A stretch of DNA of 64,000 nt from Candidatus Limnocylindrales bacterium. GTDB taxonomy: Bacteria > Desulfobacterota > Binatia > UBA1149 > CAITLU01. Shown piece by piece: positions 2,027 to 51,661 of the stretch; the first letter of the stretch is position 1, and each line of letters begins with the position of its first letter. The stretch is from positions 469,019 through 533,018 of the forward strand of contig DASPNR010000002.1 of NCBI GenBank assembly GCA_035626395.1, given 5' to 3'. The notes under the pieces are model-generated. The model was not told the DNA's origin. It saw only the letters and a program-made list of their open reading frames with translations, and ran no database searches. Made by a program: the position numbers and the translations under genes.

Positions 2027-3142
2027 ATGATGGATCGTTTTCCGTGGGCGCGCTCGGCGTGGCGCGATGCGGCTGTGGTGGTCGTGCTGCTCGCTTCTGC
2101 TTCGCCTGTTTCGGCCAGCTGTCCCGAGTTCCGGCGTTTGGCCGAAGCGGCGCTTCCGTCGCAGGTCGGCAACCGTCTGGCTCTCGCCAAGCTGCTCAAC
2201 CCGCCCGTCCATCCGCAGCTGCCGGACTTTCTGGCAGAACCGGCCAACATGCGGCGCACGCTGATCGGCCTTCGCACCGTCGGCCTGAAGCCCGACCGCA
2301 AGAGCTGCGGCCTGAGCAAGGGCAGCCGTCGCTCGGCATCCGCGTCCACCGAGTGCCTGCTGCGCAGCGCCAGGACCGGGGACTCCGGCCGCATCCGTGT
2401 CGCCGAGGGCGAGATCGCGGTCGCCGGCTCGCCGCCGGTGCATGTGGCTTTGCACGGCATCGTCAGCCTCACCAGCGATGCCGCGGTGATCAACACGGCG
2501 CGCGCCGCCGCTCGTTCCTGGGGCGTGCCGGTGGAGGAGATCCAGCGAAGCGATCAGGGGCTGATCGTGCAGCGCCATACCACCGTCTCCGCCCAGCCAT
2601 CCGCTCATGCCGTGCAGGCGCGGGATTCCCCGGTCCGTAGCGTCGCACCGCTCGTCGAGCTGCAGCCGGGGCAGGTTCGTGTGCTCGCCGGCCGGCAGGT
2701 AGCCGGCGTGCCCGTGCTCGGATCGGGGCTGGAGGCCGTGCTGGACGGCGAAGGCCGAATCGTTCGCACCAACATTCGCTGGCCGCGCTTCTGCATCGAC
2801 CCTCAGCTCGTGACCAGGCTGGACGAGAAGCTGGCTGCGCGCCAGCAGGTGATCCAGAAAGTCGTCGACTCGCTGACGGAGAAGAACGCATGCGGCTCGC
2901 TCAGCCGCCTCGGCGCCAGCATTCTCTACGTGCGGTCGGCCTCCGGGCGCTGCTATGTGCCGGCGCTCGCCCTTCATCCCGTGCAGAAGGACGGCGTCAA
3001 CGCCGCCCTGGAAGGCGAGCCGCAGTATCTGATTCCGCTGCTGCGCGAGGATCCGCCAAACGGTCAGGAGAATATCGCGCAGCCGCGCAAGGAAGAACCG
3101 ATGCTGGCGAGCGGCACTACACAGCAGCAGCCGATCAAGTGA
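2027..3142 (+). CDS. Secreted protein of unknown function, paralog A (371 aa) with a Sec signal peptide and six conserved Cys. Paralogous to the CDS at 4471-5595.
   Basis: The signal peptide (AAVVVVLLASASPVSA|SC) is followed by blocks shared with the paralog: SCxxFRxLAEAAxPSxVG, LLNPP, PQLPDFLAxPxNMRR, IRWPRFC, EEVIQKVV, NxCGxLSxL, YVRxS and CYxPALxLH. No known family recognised. Confidence 0.6.
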   Translation: MMDRFPWARSAWRDAAVVVVLLASASPVSASCPEFRRLAEAALPSQVGNRLALAKLLNPPVHPQLPDFLAEPANMRRTLIGLRTVGLKPDRKSCGLSKGSRRSASASTECLLRSARTGDSGRIRVAEGEIAVAGSPPVHVALHGIVSLTSDAAVINTARAAARSWGVPVEEIQRSDQGLIVQRHTTVSAQPSAHAVQARDSPVRSVAPLVELQPGQVRVLAGRQVAGVPVLGSGLEAVLDGEGRIVRTNIRWPRFCIDPQLVTRLDEKLAARQQVIQKVVDSLTEKNACGSLSRLGASILYVRSASGRCYVPALALHPVQKDGVNAALEGEPQYLIPLLREDPPNGQENIAQPRKEEPMLASGTTQQQPIK

Positions 3143-3534
3143 TGAAGAGGATCGCGGCGGATGACCGCACGACGACTCGCGCCGAACGATGCCTGGCGAC
3201 GATGCTCTCCCCCGTCGAGAAAACGGGATCCGCGCGACCGGCACCGCGCGACGGCAGGCACGCACCGACCGTCATCGCATCGGCCGCTCTCGCCCCCACG
3301 CAAGAAGTCGAGTCGTCGTTCCGAGCCGCCTTCGGCTGTTCTTGCGCGGCGCGCCGGCGACGGCGGCGGCTGAAGCCTGCTGAAGTTTCGCTTCGGCCCG
3401 CCCGGCTGTTCCTGCTCCGTTTCGCGATGTCACGTCACGGGATGATTGACGGCAACAGCGCAGCGCAGTAGCCGCGAGCACTGGAGGGGCGCGCATTTTC
3501 GGCGGGCCCGGTGGGTTTCAAGGAGGGTTTGTCC

Positions 3535-4458
3535 ATGACGATCCTGCATCAGTGCGTGCCACGCACGGCGTGGCACGTCCTTCTCGCCATCGCTTCTGTC
3601 TTCGCTTCCGCTTCCCCCGCTCTCGCAAATCATCTCGAAGCGAAGATGTACGGCGTCGACAACTGGGACCTCGACTGTTCGGGCAACAGCCTGAACTGGA
3701 GCGCACAGGTCGACCGCTGGTACAACGAGATGGACGATCACGGCTGGTACACTCGCGACGGTCGCTTCGTCGACACCGGCATGGACCGCAGCCCCTTCTG
3801 CGATCCGGACAGCGGCGCCTCGCCGTGCGTCGACCACAACCGCATGGACGACGGCGACGCCGTGATGGTTTTCTATCACGGCGGTGACAGCGGCAATCAC
3901 TGGCGCGCGCTCGTGCGCAGCGACGGCGGCGCCGCCGTCAACGACTGCTACATCGACTCGCCCGAATCCTCGACGGAAGGCGGCAACGGTGCCGAGCTGT
4001 TCGCCGGCGACATGGACATGGAGTTCCTGCACCTCTCCTCGTGCCAGAGCCTCGACGACGACAACCTCAACCACGCCTGGCGCATGATGCGCGATCCGAT
4101 CGATTCCCCCGCCAGCGGACAGCGCCTGCATCAAGTCGGCGGCTTCCACGGCTGCATGTGGATCGGTTCGAGCTGGCGCGACGACTACGAGGATTTCGCG
4201 GACGATGCCTTCTCGACCTCGATCAAAAACGCATGGCTCGACAACCACTACCGCAACAACGTCGGCGAGGACGACGAGGAGCAATGCCCCGTCGCCATGG
4301 CCATCGGCACCAGTGAGGCCGACTGCTTCAACCGCATAGACAACGAGCGTTACAACAACATCTTCGGCGACCCCGCCGGCAATAACTACTACTGCTACTA
4401 CTTCTTCGACGGCTGTAACCCCGCCTGCGAAGATGCGTTCAACGATCCCAACGACTGA
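3535..4458 (+). CDS. Secreted acidic Cys/Trp/Asp-rich protein of unknown function, about 307 aa if the start is the Met of MTILHQ.
   Basis: ORF 3511-4458. The N-terminal signal is WHVLLAIASVFASASPALA|NH. The mature protein has about 11 Cys, many Asp/Glu and many Trp. It contains a hydrophobic strand plus HG motif (VMVFYHGGDSGNHW) and later GFHGC. The C-terminus is YYCYYFFDGCNPACEDAF. It is flanked by the two paralogous secreted proteins. Confidence 0.5.
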   Translation: MTILHQCVPRTAWHVLLAIASVFASASPALANHLEAKMYGVDNWDLDCSGNSLNWSAQVDRWYNEMDDHGWYTRDGRFVDTGMDRSPFCDPDSGASPCVDHNRMDDGDAVMVFYHGGDSGNHWRALVRSDGGAAVNDCYIDSPESSTEGGNGAELFAGDMDMEFLHLSSCQSLDDDNLNHAWRMMRDPIDSPASGQRLHQVGGFHGCMWIGSSWRDDYEDFADDAFSTSIKNAWLDNHYRNNVGEDDEEQCPVAMAIGTSEADCFNRIDNERYNNIFGDPAGNNYYCYYFFDGCNPACEDAFNDPND

Positions 4459-4470
4459 GGGGAGGAAGCC

Positions 4471-5595
4471 ATGAAGACTGTCGTGACCGTCGCGTTTCTC
4501 TTCTCCGTGGCGCTTCTCGGGTCCGCTCCGGCCGCAGCGCAGCAGAGCTGCGAGGACTTCCGCACGCTCGCCGAAGGCGCCGTTCCATCCACCGTCGGCG
4601 ACCGTAGCGTGATGGACCAGCTCCTGAATCCGCCCATCGCCAAGCCACAGCTTCCCGACTTCCTGGCCGACCCGACGAACATGCGACGAGCCCTCAAGCT
4701 GCTCGGCTCCCGCGGCCTGAGAGCCGACCCGAGCGACTGCAGGTTCGCCGGCAAGCTCCGGAAAGGTGCGGTCGGCCAGGATCCTGGACAGGAGATCGAC
4801 TGCACGCTGCGCAGCCGGCGCGCGAATGAGGCCGCGCGTCTGGATCTCGCCCGAGGCAAGGTCACCTATCTGAATTCGGACCGGAACCACGATGGCGCCG
4901 CGGGCATCGAGAACACGACCAGCGACCAGGACGCCGTCGCGCGCACCATGCAGGCCGCGCTGGCTTGGGGTGTTCCCGGCGAGGAGATCCGCCCGCCGGG
5001 CAACGGCCTGCTGGTTCGTCACTTGATGGCGTCCAGTGTGCCGCTGGTCGACGAGCGGCCGATCACGGAGCAGGCCAAGACGCACACGGCGGAGATTCAC
5101 GTGATCACGGGCCGCCACGTCGGCGGAGTACCGGTCTTCGGATCGCTGCTGAAGACGGCGATCGACGTCAACGGGCAGGTCGCGCGCACGCACATCCGAT
5201 GGCCGCGCTTTTGCCTGGTGCCGGGCCTGCAGCAGAACCTCGACGAGACGCTGATGAGCCGCGAGGAGGTCATCCAGAAGGTCGTCGAAACGCTGGGGGC
5301 GCAGAACAAGTGCGGGACGCTGAGCAAGCTGCGCGCGAACATCATGTACGTGCGCACGTCGCAGGAGTCGGAGGCGGAGGTCAACGACTCGCGCGACGAG
5401 TCGAATACGACGCGCGGCGACGACGATCGCGGCGTCGCCGGCGAGGACCCTGCCGACGGCGGCGAGCCCTGCTACATGCCGGCGCTGACGCTGCACGCAT
5501 TTCCAAATGAGCCGGAACCGGACAGCGGACAGATCGGCATGGGGGCGCCGGAGTACGTCGTGCCCTTGATCCGGGCGGATCCGACACGGGGGTAA
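4471..5595 (+). CDS. Secreted protein of unknown function, paralog B (374 aa), with an extra acidic insertion (SQESEAEVNDSRDESNTTRGDDDRGVAGEDPADGGEP).
   Basis: Signal peptide MKTVVTVAFLFSVALLGSAPAAA|QQSC. It is roughly 50% identical to the 2027-3142 product across the full length, with the same six Cys positions. Confidence 0.65.
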   Translation: MKTVVTVAFLFSVALLGSAPAAAQQSCEDFRTLAEGAVPSTVGDRSVMDQLLNPPIAKPQLPDFLADPTNMRRALKLLGSRGLRADPSDCRFAGKLRKGAVGQDPGQEIDCTLRSRRANEAARLDLARGKVTYLNSDRNHDGAAGIENTTSDQDAVARTMQAALAWGVPGEEIRPPGNGLLVRHLMASSVPLVDERPITEQAKTHTAEIHVITGRHVGGVPVFGSLLKTAIDVNGQVARTHIRWPRFCLVPGLQQNLDETLMSREEVIQKVVETLGAQNKCGTLSKLRANIMYVRTSQESEAEVNDSRDESNTTRGDDDRGVAGEDPADGGEPCYMPALTLHAFPNEPEPDSGQIGMGAPEYVVPLIRADPTRG

Positions 5596-5721
5596 TTCAG
5601 GCGGATCCGCCGCCGAGCGCGCCAGGAGCGGCCGAGGAGGAGAGCGGTGCTTCTGGCGCGCGGTCGGCCTGGGGCGGCGCGAATCGGCACGGCCGATGCA
5701 GCCGCGTGCAGCGCACCGCGC

Positions 5722-7011
5722 TCAAACACCGGCGACATTTCCTACGCGCTCGGCAATCGCCCGCACCATCGCCACGTTGTGCGAATGCCCGGTCTTGCGC
5801 GCGTGGATGTGCGCCCGGATCGGCGCGCCCAGCAGATAGAAGTCGCCCAGGATGTCGAGGATCTTGTGGCGGGCCAGCTCCTCGGGAAAGCGCAGCTCGG
5901 TGTTCACGATGCCGGTCTCGCCGATGAGGATGAAGTTGCTGAGCTGACCGCCCTGCCCCAGCCCCGCGCTCTCCAAAGCCCGAATCTCGTCGACGAAGCC
6001 GAATGTTCTGGCGGGCGCGATCTCGCGCTTGAAGTCCTCGACGCTGCGCATCTCGAAGGTGTAGGTCTGATCGCCGATCGGCGCCGGGTAGGACAGCTCG
6101 TAGGTGATGCGAAGGCCGTCGTAAGGCCGCACCGACAGGAACTGCCCCGGCGCCGGATCGATTCGGATCTCTTCGAGCAGCCCGACCGCGGCAATGTGCG
6201 AGTCCTGCTCTTCGATCCCGGCCTGCTCGACCAGCTCGCACAGCTCGACGGCCGAGCCGTCGAGGATCGGCACTTCGCCTTCGATCTTCACCAGCAGGTT
6301 GGTGATGCCGTAAGCATGCAGCGTGGCCATCAGGTGCTCGACCGTGCGCACCGCCAGACCCTTCTTGTACAGGGTGGTCGCGTAGCCGGTGGAATCGACG
6401 TTCCCGACGACGGCTTCGACCTCGCCGCCACCGGAGACGCTGCTGAAGACGATGCCGCTGCCGGGCGGCATCGGATGCAGGATGATGCCGGTGCGCACCC
6501 CGCTGTGCAGGCCCAGACCGGCGCCGACCACCGAGCGCGCCACCGTGCATTCGCGGACTCGCGGCTCCCAGGCCGCGCCGGATCGCGCAAGCGACGCGAC
6601 GGCCTGTGCCGCGCGCGCCGCCTCACGCTTGCGGCCTCGATCCAGCGCGTTGCCGACCGCATCGACGAGCGCCTCGATGCTGAAGGGCTTCTCGATGAAG
6701 TCGGCCGCGCCGAGCTTGGTCGCGCGCACGGCCGTTTCGATGCTCCCGTGTCCCGAGATCACGATCACCGGAAGGCGCGCGTGCTCGTGCTTGAGCTTCT
6801 CGAGCACCTGGATGCCGTCCATGCCCGGAAGCCACACATCCAGCAGCACCAGGTCCGGACACTGCACGCGCGCCGCGGCCAGCGCCTCCAGGCCGTCGCG
6901 CGCATAACGGACGCGGAAGCCCTCGTCCGTCAGCACCGCGCCGATGGTGTCGCGAACGGTGGAGTCGTCGTCGACGACGAGGATGCTGCGATACACCGGC
7001 GCTGCCCTCAT
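5722..7011 (-). CDS. lpxC: Response-regulator receiver domain fused to UDP-3-O-acyl-N-acetylglucosamine deacetylase (REC-LpxC).
   Basis: 429 aa. The N-terminal roughly 120 aa is a complete REC domain: acidic pocket VVDDDS, phospho-acceptor Asp in LVLLDVWLPGMDG, IVISGHG, and the conserved Lys in FIEKPF. After a linker the sequence aligns along its full length to E. coli LpxC (GLGLHSGVRTGIILHP, RTVEHLMATL, ILDGSA, ARTFGFVDEI, HKILDILGD, HARKTGHSHN). The Zn-ligand His/Asp positions are conserved. The ATG start overlaps the stop of the upstream kinase as ATGA. Confidence 0.85.
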   Translation of the reverse strand: MRAAPVYRSILVVDDDSTVRDTIGAVLTDEGFRVRYARDGLEALAAARVQCPDLVLLDVWLPGMDGIQVLEKLKHEHARLPVIVISGHGSIETAVRATKLGAADFIEKPFSIEALVDAVGNALDRGRKREAARAAQAVASLARSGAAWEPRVRECTVARSVVGAGLGLHSGVRTGIILHPMPPGSGIVFSSVSGGGEVEAVVGNVDSTGYATTLYKKGLAVRTVEHLMATLHAYGITNLLVKIEGEVPILDGSAVELCELVEQAGIEEQDSHIAAVGLLEEIRIDPAPGQFLSVRPYDGLRITYELSYPAPIGDQTYTFEMRSVEDFKREIAPARTFGFVDEIRALESAGLGQGGQLSNFILIGETGIVNTELRFPEELARHKILDILGDFYLLGAPIRAHIHARKTGHSHNVAMVRAIAERVGNVAGV

Positions 7012-9203
7012 GCCCGATGCTGGCCGGACGAAGCCGGGAACTCAATCACGAAGCGCGTTCCCTGCGGCTGATTGGGGCGCACGCGCAGGTAGGCGTGATG
7101 GTCGGCGGCCATCGAGGCGACGATCGCCAGGCCGAGGCCGGTGCCTTCGGGCTTGGTGGAGAAATACGGCTCGAAGATGCGCGAGCGCGACGACGCGGGA
7201 ATGCCGGGGCCGGTGTCGCCAACCTCGAGCACGACCCGCGAAAGATCGGCGTCGTGACGCGTGGTGACCTCGATCGCCCGCGGCGAGCCATTGTTCGAGG
7301 AGACCGCCGAGACGGCGTTGTCGAGCAGATTCATCAGCGAACGCTTGACCGCATCGCGATTGATGCGCACCGGCGGCAGGTCCGTGCCGGCGTGGAAGCT
7401 GAGCGAAATGTCGGGGCGCGACTGGCGGTACAGCGGCAGCGTCTCCTCGACCAGCGGGTTGAGGTCCTGCACCGTCTTGTCGGCGCTGGCGGACTGGGCG
7501 AATTGCGAGAACTCGTTGACGAGCTGCTTGAGGCCGTCGACCTCGTTGACGATGGTGGCCACGCACTCCCGCACCAGCTCGGCATCGCCGCCCGGGAGTT
7601 GCGTGCTCAGGCGCCGGCCCAGGCGCTGCGCGCTCAGCTGGATCGGCGTAAGGGGATTCTTGATCTCGTGCGCGACGCGGCGCGCGACCTCGCGCCAGGC
7701 CTCCATGCGCTGGATCTCCTGGATCTGCGAGACGTCCTCGAAGAACAGCACCGAGCCCATCGGCTCGGCGCGGCCGCGGCGCAGGTTGGCGGCGGTCACC
7801 AGCAGCGTGCGCTCCTGATCGAGCAGCTTGACGTTGATGCCGCTGCCCGGGACCAGCCGTCCCAGCTGCACCTCGCGCAGCATCGTGACGACCTCGCCGA
7901 AGCCTGCCTCCTCGAACACCTCCTCGGCGCTGCGTCCGACGCTGCTCTGCTCGCGCAGACCCAGGAGCTGGAGCGCCGCCGGGTTGATCGTGCCGATGCG
8001 GCCGTCGGGGCCGATGGAGACGACGCCGGCGGCGATGTTGGCCAGCACGTTCTCGATGTACAGCCGCCGCTCCTCCAGCGCGTCGCGGCTGCGCTTGAGC
8101 TCGGCGGTCATGGCGTTGAACGATCGCACCAGCGTGGCCACCTCGTCGCCGCCCTCCTCGGGCAGCGCCACGTCCAGGTGCCCGGCCGCGACCTCGCGCG
8201 TCGCTTCGGCCAGATGTCCGATCGGATCGGTGATCCCACGCGCCATGTAGAGGCCGAGCCAGGTGGCCGAGAACACGACGACGAGCGAGGCCAGCAGCAT
8301 CGTCATCAGATAGATGTTCTTGAACGGCTGCTTGTTGAGCTTGAGGCGGCGGAACTCGCGGAAGGAGTCGAGAATCTGCGCGGCCCACGCCCGCGGGCTT
8401 TCGCCGATCACCTTCTCGACGATGACGACGCCGAGCAGGCTCTCGTCGCCGCCGCGAATGGGCGCGGAGCCGCGGATGATGTCCGTCGTTTCCTGGCTGT
8501 CCACGCGCGTGAGCACCTCGCCGCGGCGCGCCGCCGCCAGCATCTCCTCCTCGCCATGCAGCGGATTGACGTTCGCCGATTCGGCCGCGCCAACGACCAC
8601 CATCGGTTTGCCATTGGCATCCAGGACCTCGATGCGCGCCAGCCCATGCACCTGCTGCTCGGCGCTGAGGCGTGCCCGCAGGCCCTCCTTCTTGTTGCGG
8701 TCGATGAGACCGCCCTGCGAGATGTCGCGCGAGAGCGCCCGCGCATGCGCCACCGCATCATCGGCGGCGTCGCGATAGTAGGAGCGCGCCATGCCGTAGG
8801 CGCCGTCGAGAGCTTCTTCGACTTCGGTGCCCAGCCAGTCGTCGATGCCGTTGGCGACGAACTGATACGACATGATCACCATCACGACCGCAGGGAACAG
8901 CGCGATCGTGACGAAGGCCAGCACCATCGAGGTCCGAAGGTGGCTTCCCATGATGCCGCGGCGGCGCTCGAGCAGCAGCCGCAGCACGTTGCGCACCGTC
9001 AGAAAGGCGACCAGCAACAGCAGGACGATGTTGAGATTGACGAGCAGGAACGAGAGGACGTTGCCGGCCGCGCCCCGCGTCTCGGGATTGCCGATCTCCC
9101 AGATCGCGAAGGCGGCCACGGCCACGCCCGCGGCCACCACCGTCCACATCTCGCGGCGGCGGCGGCGCTGCTCGGAAGTTGGCTCGTTGCCGCCGTTGCT
9201 CAT
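7008..9203 (-). CDS. NtrY-like membrane sensor histidine kinase (TM segments, HAMP, PAS, HisKA, HATPase_c).
   Basis: 731 aa. It has N-terminal TM helices, a second TM followed by a HAMP-like region, and a PAS-like segment (NIAAGVVSIGPDGRIGTINPAA). The H-box is HEIKNPLTPI, the N-box is LMNLLDNAV and the G-boxes are DTGPGI and GTGLGLAIV. The stop overlaps the REC-LpxC start. Confidence 0.85.
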   Translation of the reverse strand: MSNGGNEPTSEQRRRRREMWTVVAAGVAVAAFAIWEIGNPETRGAAGNVLSFLLVNLNIVLLLLVAFLTVRNVLRLLLERRRGIMGSHLRTSMVLAFVTIALFPAVVMVIMSYQFVANGIDDWLGTEVEEALDGAYGMARSYYRDAADDAVAHARALSRDISQGGLIDRNKKEGLRARLSAEQQVHGLARIEVLDANGKPMVVVGAAESANVNPLHGEEEMLAAARRGEVLTRVDSQETTDIIRGSAPIRGGDESLLGVVIVEKVIGESPRAWAAQILDSFREFRRLKLNKQPFKNIYLMTMLLASLVVVFSATWLGLYMARGITDPIGHLAEATREVAAGHLDVALPEEGGDEVATLVRSFNAMTAELKRSRDALEERRLYIENVLANIAAGVVSIGPDGRIGTINPAALQLLGLREQSSVGRSAEEVFEEAGFGEVVTMLREVQLGRLVPGSGINVKLLDQERTLLVTAANLRRGRAEPMGSVLFFEDVSQIQEIQRMEAWREVARRVAHEIKNPLTPIQLSAQRLGRRLSTQLPGGDAELVRECVATIVNEVDGLKQLVNEFSQFAQSASADKTVQDLNPLVEETLPLYRQSRPDISLSFHAGTDLPPVRINRDAVKRSLMNLLDNAVSAVSSNNGSPRAIEVTTRHDADLSRVVLEVGDTGPGIPASSRSRIFEPYFSTKPEGTGLGLAIVASMAADHHAYLRVRPNQPQGTRFVIEFPASSGQHRA

Positions 9204-9216
9204 GGCTGCGAACTGG

Positions 9217-10239
9217 TCAGTCGAAAAGGGAGCGCTGCTCGCGTCGCGGCGTCACGCCGAGGTGCTGGTAGGCGCGCGCGGTGGCAACGCGTCCTCGCGG
9301 CGTCTTCTGCAGGAAGCCGCAGCGGATCAGGTACGGCTCGTACACTTCCTCGAGCGTGTCGGCGTCCTCGCCGAGCGCCGCGGCCATCGTCTCGATCCCC
9401 ACGGGGCCGCCTTCGAACTTCTCGACGAGGATCGAAAGGAACCGCCGGTCCATCGCATCGAAGCCGGCGGCGTCGACGCCGAGGGTCTGCATCGCGGCCT
9501 CCGCCACCTCGGCGGTGATGTGGCCGCGGGCCTTGACCTGCGCATAGTCGCGCAGACGGCGCAGCAGCCGGTTGGCGACGCGCGGCGTGCCGCGCGAACG
9601 CTCGGACACCAGGCGGGCGGCATCGTCATCGATACCGATACCGAGCCGGCGCGCCGAGCGCCGCACGATCTCGGCCAGCTCGAACGGCTCGTAGAACTCG
9701 AGTGTGAACGTGTTGCCGAAGCGTGAGCGCAGCGGGCCGCTGAGCATGCCCGAGCGCGTGGTGGCTCCGATCAACGTGAAGCGTGCCAGCGACAGCGAGA
9801 TCGACCGAGCCGACGGCCCCTCGCCGATGACGATGTCGATGCGGTAGTCCTCCATGGCCGGGTACAGGATCTCTTCGATCGCCTTGCCGAGCCGGTGGAT
9901 CTCGTCGATGAACAGGACGTCGCCGCGCTCGAGCGAAGTCAGGATCGCCGCCAGATCGCCCGCCTTCTCGATGACCGGTCCGCTGGTGGGGTGGATGCGC
10001 CCGCCCATCGCGCGCGCCACGATGTGCGCCAGAGAGGTCTTGCCGAGACCCGGTGGTCCCACCAGAAGCAGATGATCGAGCGTCTCGCCGCGTGCCCGGG
10101 CTGCCGCGATCGCGATCTCCAGGTTCCGGCACACCGCGCCCTGCCCCACGTAGTCGGAGAGTGACTCGGGGCGCAGGCTGACTTCGCCGGGAAGCTCTTC
10201 GGCGGCGGCGACGGGTGTGTTCGGTTGCTGCGTGGTCAT
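9217..10239 (-). CDS. ruvB: Holliday junction branch-migration ATPase RuvB.
   Basis: 340 aa. Walker A is GPPGLGKTS. Full-length RuvB similarity includes LFIDEIHRL and a C-terminal winged-helix domain. Confidence 0.95.
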
Positions 10240-10242
10240 CGG

Positions 10243-10830
10243 CTAGGCCGCGCTCGGTGGCTGCTTGCTCAGCGCGCGACGAATCAGGTCCTCGATGGTC
10301 CCGTCGCTGCTGGCGGCTGCCACCCGCACCATGCGTTCGGCCTCGCCCCGCTTGTAGCCGAGTCCGACGAGAGCCGACACCGCATCCTCTTCTATACCGT
10401 GCGCAGCCGCCGCGCCCGCTGCCGGCTCGGGCGACATCTTGCCGCGAAGATCGAGCAGCACCCGTTCGGCCGTCTTCTTGCCGATGCCGGGGACGGCGAC
10501 GAGCTTGGCAAGATCGGAGGCAGCCACGGCCTTGGCCAGCTCGTCGGGGGCGATGCCGGACAGGATCGAGATGGCCAGGCGCGGGCCGATGCCGCTGACG
10601 CCTCGCAGCAGATTGAAGGCGCTGCGCTCCTCGGCGGTGGCGAACGCGAACAGCTCGAGCGCGTTCTCGCGCATGTTGGTGATGGCGAGCAGTTCCACCG
10701 GCGCACCCGCCGGTGGCAGCGCGTAGAACGTCTGCAGGGAGATCTGGGCCTGGTAGCCGACGCCGCCGCAGTCGATCAGCACCTCGCCCGGCTGTTTGGC
10801 GGCAAGGGTGCCGCGGAGGCGGCCGATCAT
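10243..10830 (-). CDS. ruvA: Holliday junction DNA helicase subunit RuvA.
   Basis: 195 aa. MIGRLRG...VGYQ is a RuvA domain I signature. Helix-hairpin-helix motifs IGPRLA and GIGKKTAERV are present, along with the C-terminal domain III. Confidence 0.9.
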   Translation of the reverse strand: MIGRLRGTLAAKQPGEVLIDCGGVGYQAQISLQTFYALPPAGAPVELLAITNMRENALELFAFATAEERSAFNLLRGVSGIGPRLAISILSGIAPDELAKAVAASDLAKLVAVPGIGKKTAERVLLDLRGKMSPEPAAGAAAAHGIEEDAVSALVGLGYKRGEAERMVRVAAASSDGTIEDLIRRALSKQPPSAA

Positions 10831-10953
10831 TGGTAATCGCCTCCGCCGCAGGCGTCGGCTGTTGGGTAATCGCCTCCGCAGGCGGCGGCTGTTCGGTAAT
10901 CGCCTCCGCAGGCGTCGGCTGTTGGGTAAGCGCCTCCGCAGGCGTCGGCTGTT
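10831..10953. repeat. Direct tandem repeat, four copies of a roughly 30-bp unit (GGTAATCGCCTCCGCAGGCGTCGGCTGTTG). The first copy is 33 bp. It lies between the ruvC stop and the ruvA start.
   Basis: Copies at 10831-10863, 10864-10893, 10894-10923 and 10924-10953, each with 1-3 mismatches or indels. On the coding (minus) strand each unit contains GGAGGCGATTACC, and the copy nearest ruvA supplies its Shine-Dalgarno sequence directly upstream of the ATG. Confidence 0.85.
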
Positions 10954-11023
10954 GGGGCGGCGGGTGTTGTTGCGGCGGGGACGCGGGCGCTGCCTGCTCC
11001 CCAGCGGCGGCGGGCGGGGCTGC

Positions 11024-11575
11024 TCATAGCCTTGCCGTGCGCCAGCTGCGGCCGCGACCTCGGGTCAGGCCTCGCAGGGACAGGGCGTCCGAGACGCGGG
11101 CATCGAAGCGGCCGCTCAGGCCATGGCACAGAGCGGCGGCAAGAGCGTCGGCGGCATCCGTCCTGGGCAGCTCGGCCAGGGAGAGAAGTCGCGCGATGGC
11201 GGCCTGAACCTGTGCCTTGTCGGCCTTCCCATAACCGACGACGGCCTTCTTGATCATCATCGGCGTGTACTCGTTGACGCGAATGCCGCGGGCGGCAGCG
11301 GCGGCCATGGCCACGCCGCGCGCTTCCCCGATGCGAAAGGCGCTCTGGACGTTGCGGGCGACGAAGTTGCGCTCGAGGCTGACGTCGGTCGGAGAGTGCT
11401 GGTCCACGACGGCCAGCAGTTCGGCGTAGACGAGGGAGAGGCGGCAGGCGACGTCGCCGCGTCCGGCCTCGATCGTCCCCGACGCGACGTGCGTCAGCCG
11501 GGCGCCGTCGAGCTCGACGACTCCCCACCCACAAACAATCGTTCCGGGATCGACCCCGAGTACCCGCATCCCCAC
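11024..11575 (-). CDS. ruvC: Crossover junction endodeoxyribonuclease RuvC.
   Basis: 183 aa. GVDPGT is the catalytic Asp motif. Full-length RuvC similarity, with a short C-terminal extension. Confidence 0.9.
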   Translation of the reverse strand: MGMRVLGVDPGTIVCGWGVVELDGARLTHVASGTIEAGRGDVACRLSLVYAELLAVVDQHSPTDVSLERNFVARNVQSAFRIGEARGVAMAAAAARGIRVNEYTPMMIKKAVVGYGKADKAQVQAAIARLLSLAELPRTDAADALAAALCHGLSGRFDARVSDALSLRGLTRGRGRSWRTARL

Positions 11576-11718
11576 CCTCCTCGCCGCCGCACCGAATCTC
11601 GCCGGCGCCGGCCGCTGCCCTGGCGCCGCGCAGTTCGGGCCGGCATCGTGCTACTCCTACGCCTGCTCCGGCACCGTGCGAAACCGCGACCTGTCCGCAG
11701 ATTCCACCAACGACGCGG

Positions 11719-12468
11719 TCATGCCGACAGCCGGCTCAGCTCGTCCTCATCTATATCGAAGTTGGCCGATACGCGCTGCACGTCGTCGTGATCCTCGAGC
11801 GCTTCGATGAGCTTGATCGCCTTGGCGGCATCGGCGCCCGCCAGGCGCACCGTGTTCTGGGGTACAAGAGTGATCTCGGCCTGATCGACCGCGATGCCCG
11901 CAGCCTCCAGGCTGGCGCGCGCATCCTCGAGCGCATCGACCGGAATCGTGATTCGAAGGGCGTCGTCTTCGCCGACGATGTCGGTCGCGCCGGCCTCGAG
12001 CGCGAGCTCGAACACGTGCTCTTCGCCGACGCTGCTCGCGTTGGCCACGACGATCTGACCGACCCGTTCGAACATCCAACGCACGCAATTCGCTTCACCG
12101 AGATTGCCGCCGTGCTTTTGGAAGACGTTGCGCAAGTCCGCGACCGTCCTGTTCTTGTTGTCGGTCAGAGCCTCCAGCATGACGGCCATCCCGCCGGGCC
12201 CGTAGCCTTCGTACGTGGCTTCCTGGTAGTCGCCCTCCAACCCGCCTGCGCCCTTTTTTACAGCCCGTTCGATATTTTCATTCGGCATCGACTGGGCTTT
12301 GGCGGCCGCGATGGCCGTGCGTAAACGCGGGTTGGCACTTGCATCCGCGCCACCCATCCTGGCGGCAACCGTGATCTCGCGAATGAGTTTGGTAAAGACT
12401 TTTCCGCGCTTAGCGTCCTTCGCCGCCTTCTTGTGCTTGATGGTGCTCCACTTCGAGTGGCCCGACAT
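11719..12468 (-). CDS. yebC: YebC/PmpR-family probable transcriptional regulatory protein.
   Basis: 249 aa. MSGHSKWSTIKHKK is the family N-terminal signature. The yebC-ruvCAB order is a classic arrangement. Confidence 0.9.
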   Translation of the reverse strand: MSGHSKWSTIKHKKAAKDAKRGKVFTKLIREITVAARMGGADASANPRLRTAIAAAKAQSMPNENIERAVKKGAGGLEGDYQEATYEGYGPGGMAVMLEALTDNKNRTVADLRNVFQKHGGNLGEANCVRWMFERVGQIVVANASSVGEEHVFELALEAGATDIVGEDDALRITIPVDALEDARASLEAAGIAVDQAEITLVPQNTVRLAGADAAKAIKLIEALEDHDDVQRVSANFDIDEDELSRLSA

Positions 12469-12668
12469 TTTTGCCTCTTATTCGGGCACTCCCCCTTGCC
12501 CTGGTGGCTAAATACGCCCTGCAGTTGATGGTTGCACGCCGCTTTTCGATCAGGAACCTTGAGGCAACCCGGAGGCCGGGGGGCAACGAGGAGGGATGGG
12601 ATGTGCGGCGGGGCCTCAAATTCTCGGGCTAGGAAAAGGGGCGACTCTCGCTACCGAACCAACACTCG

Positions 12669-13412
12669 ATGAAAGTACTCACACTGCTACCACTGCTCTC
12701 GTTGGCAGTAGGCTGCGCTGCGTCAACGTATCCGCTGCGACCTGCCAACACCCTGTTAACAACGGCTCGCGCCACTCACTCCAAGATCTCGCCAACGACC
12801 GGCGCCAGTACCAAAGGAACAGCGGTCCTCCGACAGCAAGGCCACTGTTCCTGGTACGGCAGCGAATTCCACGGCCGCCGCACTTCCAACGGTGAACGCT
12901 TCGACAAGCACGAGCTCACCGCCGCCCACCGCACTCTCCCCTTCGGAACCCTGGTTGAAGTCACCGATCTCGAAACCGGTCGTGACGTCCGCGTTCGCAT
13001 CAACGACCGCGGGCCCTACGCCCGTGGGCGGGTCATCGACATCTCGCATGCAGCTGCCGCCGAGCTCGGCATCCTTCACAAGGGTGTTGCCAAGGTTGAG
13101 GTGCGAGTGGTCGAGCCGCACAAGTCGGACTGGAGCGGTCAGGGCTACGCTCTTCAGGTCGCCAGCTTCGACAGCAGGGCCGAGGCGGAGGGTTTCGTGG
13201 CAGGGCTGACCGACAAGCAGAAGGCGGCGGCGGTCCATTACATCAAGCCGCCCGACCCGACCGCCAAGGCCTACCGCGTCCGCTTCGGCCCGCTGGCGTG
13301 CGAGCAGACGGCCAAGAAAGTGGCCGAGAAACTGCGTCTGGCCGGGCTGGAGTCCAGCGTCATCCAGGAGCAGTTCGTCTCGCAGCGCGTCGTCGCCGAC
13401 GCGAAGCATTGA
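12669..13412 (+). CDS. rlpA: Septal-ring lytic transglycosylase RlpA-family lipoprotein (DPBB domain plus C-terminal SPOR domain).
   Basis: 247 aa. The lipobox is LAVGC. The DPBB motifs are SWYGSEFHGRRTSNGERFD and TAAHRTLPFGTLVEVTDLETGRDVRVRINDRGPY. The C-terminus is a SPOR-like region (YALQVASFDSRAEAE). Confidence 0.8.
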   Translation: MKVLTLLPLLSLAVGCAASTYPLRPANTLLTTARATHSKISPTTGASTKGTAVLRQQGHCSWYGSEFHGRRTSNGERFDKHELTAAHRTLPFGTLVEVTDLETGRDVRVRINDRGPYARGRVIDISHAAAAELGILHKGVAKVEVRVVEPHKSDWSGQGYALQVASFDSRAEAEGFVAGLTDKQKAAAVHYIKPPDPTAKAYRVRFGPLACEQTAKKVAEKLRLAGLESSVIQEQFVSQRVVADAKH

Positions 13413-20822: not shown

Positions 20823-22016
20823 ATGCTGCGTCGAACCCTGACTTTCCTGGCAGCCGTCGCGCTCATCGCGGCTGTCGCCACTCTCGTCTGGTTCAATTCC
20901 CAGCCCACCACGTTCAAGCTCGCGCCCGACCGCGAATACACGCTTCCTCTGGCATGGCTCCTTGTCGGCGCCGTCACCGCCGGCCTGCTGCTCGGCCTGA
21001 TCGCGCTCATCGCACGCGAAGGACACTGGGCGCTGCGGCAGTGGCGCGTCGAGCGCGCGCGGCGCAGCGCCGAGCGAGCCATCGCCCGCAAGACCGAAGC
21101 ACGCAGCCTGGTGCTGGCCGGACAGTACGGCAAGGCGCGCGCGCTTCTGACCAAGGCCGTCAAGAGCCCTGGGGCCGACGTCGGAGACGTCGTCGATCTG
21201 GCCGACAGCTACGTGGCCGAGGGCGACTGGACGCACGCACGACAGGTTCTCGAGGAGGGACTCAAGGATTTCGGCAGCGATCCGCTGCTGCTGCATGCTC
21301 TGGCTCGCTGCTGCCGCGCACTCGGTGACGACGCGGCGGCAGCGTCGGCGCTCGACCGCGCCGTCGATGCCTTTCCCGCCAGCATCACGCTCAACCGCAT
21401 GCTGCGCGACACGCTCGTCGACCTGCAGCGCTGGAAGCGCGCCGAAAAAGTGCAGCAGCGGCTGGTCGAGCTGCTGCCCGACGATCCGCGCGAGCGGGCA
21501 TCGCTCGTGGAGATCCGCATGGAAGCCGCCGGCGTCGACGAGCCCGCGCAGCGCGAGGCCAGCCTGCGCTCGGTGCTCGCGCTCGATCCGGCCTTCGCGC
21601 CAGCGGCTGCCGAAAGCGCACGCATACTGGACACGCAGGGGCGCCACCGCGCGGCGGTGAGGCTGCTGTACAAGGCTGCCAAGCGCCGTCCCGACACCAG
21701 GACGCTGGCCGCGCTGGACGAGCTGCTCGCGGAGAAGGAGCTGCCGCGCCTCCTCAAGATCTACGGCAAGCTGCGCGCACGCCATCCCGGCAACGGCGAG
21801 CTGCAGCTGCACTACGCCCAGCTGATGATGAGCCTCGGACGCGAGGACGACGGCGAGCGTGCGCTCGATCAGCTCGACGGCAGCGGCGGGCCCTACGCCG
21901 TGGCAGCCGAGAGGCTGCGCGCCGAGCTGTACCGCAAGCGCGAGGACCTCGAACATGCCAACGAGGCGCTGCAGCGCGCGCTCGAGTGCTCGTTGCGCAC
22001 CGGCTCCAAGAGCTAG
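20823..22016 (+). CDS. Inner-membrane protein with an N-terminal LapA-like two-TM module (DUF1049-like) and a C-terminal TPR-repeat region. LapB/YciM-like, but without the rubredoxin-type Cys cluster.
   Basis: 397 aa. The N-terminus is TM, then FNSQPTTFKL, then a second TM (LapA-type pattern). The remainder is Ala/Leu/Arg/Asp-rich helical repeats with a TPR character. No CxxC pairs near the C-terminus. Confidence 0.55.
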   Translation: MLRRTLTFLAAVALIAAVATLVWFNSQPTTFKLAPDREYTLPLAWLLVGAVTAGLLLGLIALIAREGHWALRQWRVERARRSAERAIARKTEARSLVLAGQYGKARALLTKAVKSPGADVGDVVDLADSYVAEGDWTHARQVLEEGLKDFGSDPLLLHALARCCRALGDDAAAASALDRAVDAFPASITLNRMLRDTLVDLQRWKRAEKVQQRLVELLPDDPRERASLVEIRMEAAGVDEPAQREASLRSVLALDPAFAPAAAESARILDTQGRHRAAVRLLYKAAKRRPDTRTLAALDELLAEKELPRLLKIYGKLRARHPGNGELQLHYAQLMMSLGREDDGERALDQLDGSGGPYAVAAERLRAELYRKREDLEHANEALQRALECSLRTGSKS

Positions 22017-25484: not shown

Positions 25485-25550
25485 CGGTCAGGCGCGGTGT
25501 GCACGCGGGCCGGTGGAACCGCCCCGACGCCGCCGCTAGGTTCTGGCGAC

Positions 25551-26234
25551 ATGACGAAAATCGCGTCCCTGCTCCGAACCGGTCTGGTCCTGCTGGCGAC
25601 GGCCGGCACCTTGAGCGCCTGTGGTGCCGGGCCCGTGCGGCCCGAGGACGAGCTGTATCGAGAAGCCTCGCTGGCCTTCGAGGAGGAGAGCTACAACTCG
25701 GCCATCGAGGACTACAAGAAGATGCTCGAGGAGTACCCGTTCTCGGACAAGGCCGAGACGGCGGGCTTCAACATCGCCTACGCCTACTACGTCACCGAGA
25801 AATATCCGGAGGCCATTGAAGCGTTCAGCGACTTCGAGCGCCTCTATCCGGTGAGCCCCCTGCTGCCGTTCGTCAGCTACACGATCGGCATGTGCTATCT
25901 CGGACAGGCCAAGTCCGATGACCGCGACCCGTCGGCCTCCGAGGCTGCGCTGCGCCAGTTCGAGCGTATGGCGCAGCAGTTCCCCAAATCGATCTACGCC
26001 GACCTGGCGCGCTACCGCGCGCACGAAGCGCGCGAGAACCTGGCGCTGCACGAGCTGGTGGTGGGCGACTTCTATCGCGAAAAGCAGCGGCACGACGCCG
26101 CCGCCGCGCGCTATCGCTACGTGCTCACGCACTATCCGACGACCGAAGCCGCGGCCCGCGCCAATCAGCGACTCGGCGAGCTGAGCGCCAATCCGCCGGC
26201 GCAGGCGGCCGGGGACGCTTCAAAGGGCTCCTGA
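25551..26234 (+). CDS. bamD: Outer membrane protein assembly factor BamD (lipoprotein, TPR-like).
   Basis: The likely start is the internal Met of MTKIASLL, with lipobox LSAC. The remainder matches the BamD/ComL family (YNSAIEDYKKMLEEYPFSDKAE). Confidence 0.8.
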   Translation: MTKIASLLRTGLVLLATAGTLSACGAGPVRPEDELYREASLAFEEESYNSAIEDYKKMLEEYPFSDKAETAGFNIAYAYYVTEKYPEAIEAFSDFERLYPVSPLLPFVSYTIGMCYLGQAKSDDRDPSASEAALRQFERMAQQFPKSIYADLARYRAHEARENLALHELVVGDFYREKQRHDAAAARYRYVLTHYPTTEAAARANQRLGELSANPPAQAAGDASKGS

Positions 26235-27292: not shown

Positions 27293-27305
27293 GTATCGCA
27301 CGGCC

Positions 27306-51653: not shown

Positions 51654-51661
51654 GCGCTCGC

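What the first reader, a model, noticed from the sequence alone, without database searches (positions are those of the whole stretch)
5722..9203. Two-component pair whose output domain is LpxC: an NtrY-like sensor kinase translationally coupled to a REC-LpxC fusion
The gene at 5722-7011 encodes an intact receiver domain joined by a roughly 30-aa linker to a full-length LpxC. The receiver has its acidic pocket, phospho-acceptor Asp and conserved Lys. The LpxC part has its catalytic His/Asp/Glu and zinc-ligand positions intact. The kinase stop overlaps the fusion's start as ATGA, so the two are almost certainly a cognate pair. LpxC catalyses the committed step of lipid A synthesis. In model organisms it is controlled mainly by proteolysis (FtsH/LapB), so direct phospho-control of the enzyme would be a different regulatory logic and may be undescribed. 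The pair lies at the end of the same-strand yebC-ruvCAB array.
Basis: partly seen in the sequence, partly recalled or inferred. Interest (0 to 1): 0.8.

Follow-up and report, generated by a model that had tools for sequence, protein, structure and literature searches.

The report
Receiver domain fused to LpxC enzyme
A membrane sensor kinase sits next to a gene in which a phospho-receiver domain is fused to LpxC, the enzyme that commits cells to making lipid A. This suggests that outer-membrane lipid synthesis is switched directly by phosphorylation, a control mode not mentioned in two recent reviews of LpxC regulation.

Summary
Window 5722-7011(-) encodes a 429-aa REC-LpxC protein. It has an intact phospho-acceptor pocket (D14, D15, D58, S86, K108) and intact LpxC zinc and catalytic residues (E225, H226, H382, K383, D386, D390, H409). 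Window 7008-9203(-) encodes an NtrY-type kinase whose stop overlaps the fusion's start (ATGA). Both genes follow yebC-ruvCAB.

The fusion is not a one-off:
- At least 120 protein clusters, mostly from Binatia-labelled MAGs, share the architecture.
- 20 of 21 related loci with upstream sequence keep the kinase directly upstream.

Related loci form an evolutionary series:
- Separate genes: lpxC-DUF4390-NtrY-like kinase-sigma54 regulator.
- REC-AAA+-(HTH)-LpxC, with GAFTGA and the Walker-B Glu lost (Nitrospinota).
- REC-HTH-LpxC.
- REC-LpxC.

All fused LpxC domains are monophyletic (98% bootstrap).

Most likely, a two-component system that once controlled lpxC transcription was rewired into direct phospho-control of the enzyme. 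The sign and mechanism of that control are inferred, not shown. I could not test whether this is the genome's only lpxC.

I found no description of the fusion in the literature, including the 2025 and 2026 LpxC-regulation reviews. It is a new variant of a known kind (enzymatic response regulators). Cultured Desulfobulbales carry a related form.

The parts
5722..7011 (-). REC-LpxC fusion gene (429 aa)
   Evidence: ORF, translation, Pfam and NCBIfam hits. The identical protein is P0001 in public databases.
6655..6984 (-). Receiver (REC) domain, aa 10-119. Phospho-acceptor D58 is at 6838-6840; the acidic pocket D14/D15 is at 6967-6972; S86 is at 6754-6756; K108 is at 6688-6690.
   Evidence: Pfam PF00072, 110 bits. 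Codons read. These residues are invariant in 118-120 of 120 related clusters. The best NCBIfam match for the REC part is NtrX.
6562..6630 (-). Inter-domain linker, about aa 128-150. It is variable in sequence and predicted to be disordered.
   Evidence: AF2 pLDDT is below 50 for residues 127-146. The 65-sequence alignment has no consensus residues here.
5752..6546 (-). LpxC deacetylase domain, aa 156-420. Zinc ligands are H226, H382 and D386. Catalytic residues are E225 and H409 (paired with D390), plus T336 and K383.
   Evidence: Pfam PF03331, 268.5 bits. TIGR00325 scores 228.5 against a cutoff of 187. PDB alignment. Foldseek TM 0.83 to A. aeolicus LpxC. Residues are invariant.
7008..7011 (-). 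ATGA overlap of the kinase stop (TGA) and the fusion start (ATG)
   Evidence: Sequence read.
7008..9203 (-). NtrY-type sensor histidine kinase gene (731 aa). It has four hydrophobic segments (aa 19-38, 44-79, 89-120, 293-321) and an extracytoplasmic loop of about 170 aa.
   Evidence: Pfam NtrY_N, HAMP, PAS, HisKA and HATPase_c. Hydropathy. Colinear with the kinases of split loci over all regions.
7491..7697 (-). HisKA (DHp) domain, aa 503-571. The phospho-His H512 is at 7668-7670 within an H-E-x-x-N motif.
   Evidence: Pfam. Codons read.
7032..7358 (-). HATPase_c catalytic domain of the kinase, aa 616-724
   Evidence: Pfam, 74.5 bits.
9217..10239 (-). ruvB. Its stop lies 13 nt before the kinase start, so it is probably in the same transcription unit.
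   Evidence: Pfam RuvB_N, lid and C domains. Gap read. No terminator-like site lies in the gap.
10243..12468 (-). yebC (11719-12468), ruvC (11024-11575) and ruvA (10243-10830), upstream on the same strand
   Evidence: Pfam. The same yebC-ruvCAB-kinase-fusion order is found in L002, L003, L005, L007, L008, L012 and L082.

Best explanation
**What it is.** The two genes form a two-component system whose output is the enzyme LpxC itself.

**Proposed mechanism.**
- The NtrY-type membrane kinase senses an extracytoplasmic or envelope cue.
- It autophosphorylates on H512 and transfers the phosphate to D58 of the receiver domain fused to LpxC. The HExxN motif suggests it can also dephosphorylate D58.
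- The phosphorylation state of the receiver then sets how much UDP-3-O-acyl-GlcNAc is deacetylated, and so the flux into lipid A.
- The linker is short to long, unconserved and disordered across the family, and the AAA+ and HTH modules were dispensable. The receiver therefore most likely acts as a tethered module.
- That module either docks on LpxC and is released by phosphorylation (CheB-like), or drives phospho-dependent dimerisation through its NtrX-like alpha4-beta5-alpha5 face.

**Proposed origin.**
- The system descends from a conserved lpxC-linked NtrY-like kinase plus sigma54-type regulator module that controlled lpxC transcription.
- The regulator gene fused to lpxC and the sigma54-activating AAA+ domain decayed.
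- The AAA+ and HTH were then deleted, leaving REC-LpxC.

**Shown here:** the architecture, residue integrity, family-wide conservation, kinase adjacency, the series of intermediate architectures, and monophyly of the fused LpxC domains.

**Inferred:** phosphotransfer, any effect on activity and its sign, the nature of the signal, and the direction of the evolutionary series.
For: **Architecture and intact residues:**

**The family is real and conserved:**
- At least 120 clusters at 60-92% identity share REC+LpxC.
- The REC residues (D14, D15, D58, S86, K108) and the LpxC catalytic residues are invariant, apart from truncated fragments and one or two single substitutions, in three sets of 120 clusters: Binatia-type, Nitrospinota REC-AAA-LpxC and Desulfobulbales-type. 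The one systematic change is T336 to Ser in all 120 of the Desulfobulbales-type set.

**The kinase is linked to the fusion:**
- It lies directly upstream in 20 of 21 Binatia-type loci with upstream sequence, with gaps of -28 to +128 nt.
- The fusion-linked kinase has the same domain order as kinases of split loci, with 52-60% identity in HisKA.

**Split loci show the unfused state:**
- Split loci were found in NC10/Methylomirabilota, Acidobacteriota, Syntrophobacteraceae, Desulfarculaceae and others.
- In the loci examined in detail, the order is lpxC-DUF4390-NtrY-like kinase-regulator.
- The regulator has REC + Sigma54_activat (240-253 bits) + HTH_8.

**Intermediate architectures exist:**
- REC-AAA+-lid-LpxC single ORFs are found in L024 (still preceded by DUF4390 and the kinase) and in Nitrospinota.
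- Their AAA+ domains score only 29-141 bits and have lost GAFTGA and the Walker-B Glu. Several retain an HTH_8-like stretch directly before the LpxC N-terminus.
- REC-HTH_8-LpxC (P0249, P0251) and long-linker forms also exist.

**Phylogeny:** in an NJ tree of the LpxC domain, all fused forms are monophyletic in 98% of 200 bootstraps.

**Literature link between this signalling family and lpxC:**
- In D. vulgaris the NtrC-type regulator DVU2934 has lpxC as its single target. In S. fumaroxidans lpxC lies next to the orthologous operon (PMC3333781).
- NtrYX controls lpxC transcription in R. sphaeroides and C. crescentus (PMC12444477).

**Other support:**
- The C-terminal tail after the catalytic His is only 11-24 residues and is variable. 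From established knowledge, this differs from the longer E. coli tail that carries the FtsH degron.
- AF2 gives pTM 0.81 with both domains confident.
Against: - No biochemical data exist. Phosphotransfer and any effect on LpxC activity are untested.
- The sign of regulation is unknown. NtrYX represses lpxC in alphaproteobacteria, whereas a sigma54 activator would induce it.
- The AF2 output gave no inter-domain error map, so docking of REC on LpxC is not demonstrated. Residues 338-373, a conserved LpxC region, were modelled with low confidence.
- The immediate unfused precursor with the order kinase-regulator-lpxC was not among the 80 loci. All 13 split loci have lpxC upstream of the kinase.
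- Two of the three fused lineages (Nitrospinota 0 of 4 loci, Desulfobulbales-type 0 of 5) have no adjacent kinase, and one Binatia-type locus (L016) lacks it too.
- The REC-domain tree is unresolved.
- Whether the genome has another, stand-alone lpxC could not be checked.
Confidence: 0.65

Rival explanations
1. The receiver controls the abundance of LpxC rather than its catalysis. Phosphorylation exposes or hides a degron, or recruits a protease, so the system is a two-component version of the regulated proteolysis seen in E. coli.
For: From established knowledge, regulated proteolysis is the dominant known mode of LpxC control, and receiver domains can act in proteolytic targeting (RssB, CpdR). 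The E. coli-type long C-terminal tail is absent, so another handle for turnover would be needed. The disordered linker could serve as an initiation site.
Against: No degron or adaptor feature was identified. The linker and C-terminus are not conserved. Nothing in the neighbourhood encodes a protease.
Confidence: 0.15
2. The fusion is an accessory, condition-specific second LpxC. A stand-alone housekeeping lpxC elsewhere in the genome carries bulk lipid A synthesis.
For: A second copy could not be excluded. Only the 64-kb window and flanks of 10 kb or less around relatives were searchable. The fused LpxC domains score lower against Pfam LpxC (240-288 bits) than the two stand-alone LpxCs of split loci that were scored, L037 and L038 (326 and 348 bits). 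The fused clade spans several phyla, which could reflect horizontal spread.
Against: - The fusion occupies the same neighbourhood as a stand-alone lpxC elsewhere: ruvB-lpxC-DUF4390-kinase-regulator in L038 against ruvB-kinase-REC~LpxC here.
- It recurs across Binatia-, Nitrospinota- and Desulfobulbales-type sequences, with at least 120 clusters in each set.
- It is very conserved (84-95% identity among the Desulfobulbales-type hits).
- All catalytic residues are invariant.
- TIGR00325 passes its equivalog cutoff.
- One apparent close stand-alone relative (P0280) turned out to be a frameshifted fused locus.
Confidence: 0.2
3. The receiver is a vestige of the gene fusion with no regulatory role. 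LpxC is constitutive, and the adjacent kinase signals to some other regulator.
For: The AAA+ and HTH parts clearly decayed after fusion, so parts of the ancestral regulator can become relics. Two of the three fused lineages lack an adjacent kinase.
Against: The five phospho-chemistry residues are essentially invariant across three deeply diverged lineages and 360 clusters. The neighbouring AAA+ motifs were lost over the same time. The kinase stays adjacent in 20 of 21 Binatia-type loci, and in the window it overlaps the fusion gene.
Confidence: 0.07
4. Information flows the other way. Substrate or product occupancy of the LpxC domain modulates the receiver's phosphorylation or dephosphorylation. 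The fusion would then act as a metabolite-sensing phosphate sink that tunes the kinase's signalling to another regulator.
For: From established knowledge, single-domain and enzyme-linked receivers can act as phosphate sinks. The kinase carries an HExxN phosphatase-type motif.
Against: No second regulator gene lies in the operon or within the window near the pair. The ancestral logic, a regulator acting on lpxC, points from kinase to LpxC.
Confidence: 0.05

Closest known systems
CheB (REC-methylesterase) and other enzymatic response regulators (PleD/WspR REC-GGDEF, RpfG REC-HD-GYP)
   Same: An N-terminal receiver is joined by a flexible linker to an enzyme, and phosphorylation of the receiver Asp is expected to switch the enzyme. 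The tolerance of variable tethers fits a CheB-like docking and release model.
   Different: The output is a zinc amidase of an essential biosynthetic pathway (lipid A), not a signalling or second-messenger enzyme. There is no homology between LpxC and those output domains. The mechanism is untested.
D. vulgaris DVU2931/DVU2934 system and its orthologues (PMC3333781)
   Same: A kinase plus an NtrC-type regulator is dedicated to lpxC. The paper reports lpxC next to the orthologous operon in S. fumaroxidans, which matches the split loci found here (for example L037 from a Syntrophobacteraceae MAG).
   Different: Control there is transcriptional, by a separate REC-AAA+-HTH regulator. Here the REC is covalently joined to LpxC, and the AAA+ and HTH are gone. 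Orthology to DVU2931/DVU2934 is inferred from synteny, not from sequence comparison.
NtrY/NtrX of alpha- and betaproteobacteria
   Same: The kinase has the NtrY_N-HAMP-PAS-HisKA-HATPase_c architecture. The REC is most similar to NtrX and is close to the Brucella NtrX structures. NtrYX regulates lpxC transcription and the envelope in R. sphaeroides and C. crescentus (PMC7240162, PMC12444477).
   Different: NtrX is a DNA-binding regulator with a large regulon. Here the partner has no AAA+ or HTH and a single built-in target. No NCBIfam equivalog cutoff is reached.
E. coli/Salmonella LpxC homeostasis by FtsH-LapB-YejM(PbgA)
   Same: It has the same control point (the committed step of lipid A synthesis), and a membrane protein with a periplasmic domain acts as the likely sensor.
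   Different: That system works by regulated proteolysis through a C-terminal degron. The fused protein has only a short, variable tail and instead carries a phospho-receiver.
LpxC-FabZ bifunctional fusion (NCBIfam PRK13188)
   Same: This is another natural fusion of LpxC with a second domain. It appeared among the hits.
   Different: The partner there is a C-terminal metabolic enzyme, not an N-terminal signalling domain.

Membership tests
LpxC (UDP-3-O-acyl-GlcNAc deacetylase; PF03331 / TIGR00325) | Profile score above the curated cutoffs over the full domain | tested here: met
   PF03331 scores 268.5 bits (cutoff 27), covering profile positions 3-267 of 268. TIGR00325 scores 228.5 bits (cutoff 187.25).
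LpxC (UDP-3-O-acyl-GlcNAc deacetylase; PF03331 / TIGR00325) | Zinc ligands His/His/Asp, the catalytic Glu and the His-Asp pair, plus the Thr and Lys of the active site | tested here: met
   H226, H382 and D386; E225; H409 with D390; T336; K383. These align to the P. aeruginosa LpxC motifs, their codons were read directly, and they are invariant in the family.
LpxC (UDP-3-O-acyl-GlcNAc deacetylase; PF03331 / TIGR00325) | LpxC two-domain fold | tested here: met
   The AF2 model matches A. aeolicus LpxC at TM 0.83 and P. aeruginosa LpxC at 0.72-0.79. Residues 338-373 were modelled with low confidence.
LpxC (UDP-3-O-acyl-GlcNAc deacetylase; PF03331 / TIGR00325) | Deacetylase activity, and being the organism's lipid A committed-step enzyme | not testable with these tools
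   This needs an enzyme assay or complementation, plus a whole-genome search for other PF03331 genes.
Response regulator receiver domain (PF00072) | Profile match, plus the acidic pocket DD, the phospho-acceptor Asp, the Ser/Thr, the aromatic switch residue and the Lys | tested here: met
   110 bits (cutoff 30.2). D14, D15, D58, S86, F105 and K108 are present and conserved in 118-120 of 120 clusters.
Response regulator receiver domain (PF00072) | Cognate histidine kinase and phosphotransfer | tested here: inconclusive
   The kinase is adjacent with an ATGA overlap, and adjacency holds in 20 of 21 related loci. Phosphotransfer itself is not testable here.
NtrY-type sensor kinase | NtrY_N membrane region + HAMP + PAS + HisKA + HATPase_c, in that order | tested here: met
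   All five are above Pfam cutoffs (NtrY_N 29.9 against 23.2). Four hydrophobic segments and a loop of about 170 aa are present.
NtrY-type sensor kinase | Equivalog-level match to a named kinase family | tested here: not met
   The best NCBIfam hits are the LIC_11548 family at 248.5 bits (cutoff 750) and AtoS at 223 bits (cutoff 646).
NtrX / NtrC-family response regulator | REC followed by an AAA+ (sigma54-interaction-type) domain and a Fis-type HTH | tested here: not met
   Only the REC part matches (NtrX model 138 bits against a cutoff of 600, model positions 3-129). No AAA+ or HTH is present in the window protein. Both are present, in decayed form, in the longer relatives.
CheB-type phospho-activated enzyme (mechanistic analogy only) | The receiver occludes the active site of the fused enzyme until it is phosphorylated | not testable with these tools
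   The AF2 output gave no coordinates or inter-domain error map.

The most novel reading that the evidence does not exclude
REC-LpxC is the only LpxC of these bacteria. Together with its NtrY-type kinase it forms a minimal two-protein homeostat for lipid A. The kinase's membrane and periplasmic module reads envelope or LPS status and sets LpxC activity directly by phosphorylation. In Binatia, Nitrospinota and Desulfobulbales this would replace the FtsH/LapB/YejM proteolytic circuit. It would also be a documented case of a pathway-specific transcription factor being converted into a covalent allosteric switch of its own target enzyme.
Probability: 0.35. Interest if true: 0.85.

Novelty: new variant of a known kind. 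Interest (0 to 1): 0.72.

Why it matters
**Why the control point matters.** LpxC catalyses the committed step of lipid A synthesis and is a long-standing antibiotic target. From established knowledge and the reviews read here, its known regulation is proteolytic in enterobacteria and, in a few alphaproteobacteria and Desulfovibrio, transcriptional. A receiver domain fused to LpxC would add a third logic: direct, reversible phospho-control of the enzyme by a membrane sensor.

**Why the family is useful for evolution.** The related architectures run from separate genes, through REC-AAA+-HTH-LpxC with a decayed AAA+, to REC-LpxC. This is an unusually complete natural record of a transcriptional circuit being rewired into a post-translational one.

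**Why it is testable.**
- Related fusions occur in cultured Desulfobulbales (Desulfoprunum benzoelyticum, Desulfopila sp.).
- They also occur throughout Nitrospinota, which from established knowledge are major marine nitrite oxidisers.
- The proteins are soluble, and LpxC and phosphotransfer assays are standard.

**A practical point for annotation.** Hundreds of database entries named simply 'LpxC' hide a signalling domain.

Tried and rejected
**Second lpxC.** Only the 64-kb window (no second LpxC or REC relative) and flanks of 10 kb or less around related loci could be searched. The question stays open.

**Apparent stand-alone close relative.**
- P0280 (292 aa, 54% identical to the window protein) looked like a stand-alone LpxC.
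- Its contig (L082) carries yebC-ruvCAB-kinase-REC-LpxC, with RuvB, RuvC, the kinase and the fusion all broken across reading frames.
- It is therefore an assembly frameshift artefact, not a stand-alone gene.

**REC-domain NJ tree.** It was unresolved (all fused forms together in 1% of bootstraps). It neither supports nor refutes a single origin.

**Bootstrap labels.** The values printed on the rerooted tree were unreliable. They were recomputed as bipartition frequencies.

**Promoter and terminator scan of 5400-13000.** Nothing interpretable was found.

**DUF4390.** This is the accessory gene of split loci. It was not found in the window or in Binatia-type loci by tblastn.

**Structure.**
- Foldseek against the AlphaFold database was not available.
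- The PDB search returned only LpxC-domain matches and no REC+LpxC structure.
- The AF2 output gave no coordinates or error map, so the REC-LpxC interface could not be examined.

**Literature.** Galperin's 2006 response-regulator classification (PMC1482966) is not held. A bare listing of this architecture in a census or in InterPro cannot be excluded.

**Taxonomy labels.** Labels of relatives are inconsistent. The source MAG is labelled 'Candidatus Limnocylindrales', and relatives are labelled Binatia, Deltaproteobacteria, Myxococcales and even Enterobacteriaceae. I did not rely on them beyond 'Binatia-like'.

Full report
**1. The observation**

The fusion gene, window 5722-7011(-), encodes 429 aa:
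- A Pfam receiver domain covers aa 10-119 (110 bits).
- A full-length Pfam LpxC domain covers aa 156-420 (268.5 bits, profile positions 3-267 of 268).
- The NCBIfam lpxC equivalog model TIGR00325 scores 228.5 bits against a curated cutoff of 187.

The kinase gene, window 7008-9203(-), encodes 731 aa:
- Its domains are NtrY_N, HAMP, PAS, HisKA and HATPase_c.
- It has four hydrophobic segments and an extracytoplasmic loop of about 170 residues.

Gene junctions and context:
- The kinase stop and the fusion start overlap as ATGA at 7008-7011.
- ruvB ends 13 nt before the kinase start. ruvA, ruvC and yebC precede it on the same strand.

Reading the codons directly gives:
- REC: D14, D15, D58, S86, F105, K108.
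- LpxC: E225, H226, T336, H382, K383, D386, D390, H409.
- Kinase: H512-E-x-x-N.

Alignment to solved P. aeruginosa LpxC structures (E about 1e-45) places these LpxC residues on the known zinc-ligand and catalytic motifs. An AlphaFold2 model (pLDDT 82.9, pTM 0.81) has a confident REC fold and a confident LpxC fold, with TM 0.83 to A. aeolicus LpxC. The linker at residues 127-146 is disordered.

**2. It is a family, not an accident**

- The identical protein is already public, from a MAG contig of 968,870 bp. At least 120 clusters at 60-92% identity have the same REC+LpxC architecture. All are named only 'UDP-3-O-acyl-GlcNAc deacetylase', and most carry a Candidatus Binatia or 'Deltaproteobacteria' label.
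- A scan of one genome per GTDB species returned 22 Binatia-type fused loci, including two complete Binatia chromosomes.
- In 20 of the 21 such loci that have upstream sequence, a full-length homologue of the kinase lies directly upstream, with gaps of -28 to +128 nt.
- The yebC-ruvCAB array precedes the kinase in the subclade that contains the window (L002, L003, L005, L007, L008, L012; also L082). It does not in the Binataceae subclade.

**3. Related architectures**

The same scan and an exhaustive profile search revealed other arrangements.

*(a) Split loci.*
- These occur in NC10/Methylomirabilota, Acidobacteriota, Syntrophobacteraceae, Desulfarculaceae and others.
- In the loci examined in detail, the order is stand-alone lpxC, DUF4390, an NtrY-like kinase colinear with the window's, then a classical sigma54-type regulator.
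- That regulator has REC, Sigma54_activat at 240-253 bits, an AAA lid and HTH_8.
- One such locus (L038) reads ruvB-lpxC-DUF4390-kinase-regulator. This is the same neighbourhood as in the window.

*(b) REC-AAA+-lid-LpxC single ORFs of 660-770 aa.*
- One is in a Thermodesulfobacteriota MAG (L024), still preceded by DUF4390 and the kinase.
- Others are found throughout Nitrospinota, with at least 120 clusters.

*(c) REC-HTH_8-LpxC* (P0249, P0251) and forms with 50-110-residue linkers.

*(d) A second short REC-LpxC clade with no adjacent kinase.*
- It occurs in Desulfobulbales, Desulfocapsaceae and some 'Nitrospirae'-labelled MAGs.
- It includes the cultured Desulfopila sp. IMCC35006 and Desulfoprunum benzoelyticum.

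**4. What happened to the regulator after fusion**

An alignment of the AAA+ regions shows a clear contrast.
- The unfused regulators keep Walker A (GxxGxGKE), the sigma54-contact loop GAFTGA, Walker B (DE) and the Fis-type HTH.
- Every fused protein has lost GAFTGA and the Walker-B glutamate. Their Sigma54_activat scores drop to 29-141 bits.
- Several fused proteins (L024, P0246, P0160, P0234, P0245) still carry a recognisable HTH_8-homologous stretch immediately before the LpxC N-terminus (QKTLKRSVVL...). A whole regulator gene therefore became joined to lpxC.

In contrast, the receiver's phospho-chemistry residues and the LpxC catalytic residues are essentially invariant in all three fused lineages, in three sets of 120 clusters. 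The only systematic change is T336 to Ser in the Desulfobulbales type. So the AAA+ and HTH decayed or were deleted, while the receiver stayed under selection.

**5. Phylogeny**

- A neighbour-joining tree of the LpxC domain used 50 sequences and 262 columns.
- It groups all fused forms to the exclusion of 18 stand-alone LpxCs in 98% of 200 bootstraps.
- The kinase-less short clade has 100% support, and it groups with the REC-AAA-LpxC forms in 82%.
- This fits one fusion event followed by at least two independent losses of the AAA+ module.

Caveats:
- NJ was used on a limited and non-random sample of stand-alone LpxCs.
- The REC tree is unresolved.
- The direct precursor with the order kinase-regulator-lpxC was not found. 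All 13 split loci have lpxC upstream of the kinase.

**6. How it most likely works**

*Shown:* an intact kinase, an intact receiver, an intact LpxC, tight and conserved linkage, and descent from a module linked to lpxC.

*From the literature:*
- In D. vulgaris the NtrC-type regulator DVU2934, in an operon with kinase DVU2931, has lpxC as its only target. In S. fumaroxidans lpxC lies next to the orthologous operon (PMC3333781).
- NtrYX regulates lpxC transcription in R. sphaeroides and C. crescentus (PMC12444477; PMC7240162).

*Inferred:*
- The kinase phosphorylates D58, and this sets LpxC output.
- Linkers range from about 20 to more than 100 residues, are unconserved and are predicted to be disordered. 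The AAA+ and HTH were dispensable.
- Signal transmission through a rigid linker is therefore unlikely.
- A tethered receiver that docks on LpxC and is released by phosphorylation (CheB-like), or phospho-dependent dimerisation via the NtrX-like receiver, is more plausible.
- The sign of regulation cannot be deduced.
- The tail after the catalytic His is short (11-24 residues) and variable. The protein therefore lacks the longer E. coli-type C-terminal region that carries the FtsH degron (established knowledge; the reference is cited in PMC3333781).

**7. Rivals**

- Control of turnover rather than catalysis.
- An accessory second LpxC.
- A vestigial receiver.
- Reverse signalling, with the fusion acting as a phosphate sink.

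The vestigial-receiver rival is the weakest, given. The accessory-paralogue rival could not be excluded because no tool let me search a whole genome. Synteny with a housekeeping-type lpxC (L038), recurrence across the three sampled lineages and high conservation argue against it. One apparent close stand-alone relative (P0280) proved to be a frameshifted fused locus in an error-prone assembly.

**8. Known or new**

- Seven literature searches were run. The four aimed at the fusion found nothing on a receiver-LpxC fusion. The others located census papers and reviews.
- Two recent reviews contain no instance of 'receiver', 'fusion' or 'fused': 'The regulation of lipid A biosynthesis' (2025, PMC12444477) and 'Control of the committed step in lipopolysaccharide biosynthesis' (2026, PMC13333357).
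- The architecture is present in public databases under the plain name LpxC. One JGI entry is called NtrX.
- I could not check older response-regulator censuses or InterPro.
- Enzymatic response regulators are a known kind. LpxC as the output, and the documented conversion of a pathway-specific regulator into a covalent switch on its target, appear to be new.

**Verdict**

The mechanism is inferred. It is a new variant of a known kind, with interest 0.72.

Noticed in passing
window 39883-42078 (+) and 43386-45314 (+): A CHASE2-adenylate/guanylate cyclase membrane protein lies about 1.3 kb upstream of a glutaminase fused to a C-terminal cyclic-nucleotide-binding domain (Pfam Glutaminase 411 bits plus cNMP_binding 69 bits). 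This could be a cNMP-regulated glutaminase paired with its own cyclase.
   Followed up: no
window 27114-27236 (+): A SAM riboswitch (Rfam RF00162, 72.7 bits) lies upstream of ORFs 27291-28010 and 28432-29424. The latter is a PLP-dependent (PALP) enzyme.
   Followed up: no
window 2027-3142 (+), 3511-4458 (+), 4471-5595 (+): Three ORFs converge on the fusion gene. Two have no Pfam hit and are paralogues of each other (38% identity over about 370 aa). A weak DUF6345 protein lies between them. The same trio follows the fusion in L081.
   Followed up: partly
window 22013-23146 (-) and 23143-24123 (-): Two adjacent ArsA/ParA-like ATPase genes overlap by 4 nt.
   Followed up: no
window 25497-26234 (+) and 50208-51770 (-): A BamD/YfiO lipoprotein and a BepA-like M48 peptidase with TPR repeats are present, which indicates an outer membrane. 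This conflicts with the 'Candidatus Limnocylindrales' (Chloroflexota) label that NCBI gives the source MAG. The labels of related MAGs are also inconsistent (Binatia, Myxococcales, Enterobacteriaceae).
   Followed up: partly
L024:7222-9531; L025:1278-3284; L027:8891-10888; P0121-P0240: In Nitrospinota and one Thermodesulfobacteriota MAG, LpxC is the C-terminal domain of a 660-770-aa REC-AAA+-(HTH remnant)-LpxC protein. Its AAA+ has lost GAFTGA and the Walker-B Glu. It is annotated only as LpxC.
   Followed up: yes
L037:11026-11661, L038:2611-3201, L079:8845-9435, L024:4497-5024: A DUF4390 gene sits immediately upstream of the NtrY-like kinase in split loci and in L024. It was not detected in the Binatia-type loci or the window. 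It may be an accessory periplasmic partner of the sensor.
   Followed up: partly
L082 (ENA contig_25414): This error-prone assembly breaks RuvB, RuvC, the kinase and the fusion across reading frames. That created an apparent stand-alone LpxC (P0280) in the protein databases.
   Followed up: yes
window 12001-13000: GC content dips to 0.61, against about 0.68 elsewhere, in the region upstream of yebC. Overlapping ORFs lie on both strands at 12669-13412. No tRNA or Rfam hit was found there.
   Followed up: no
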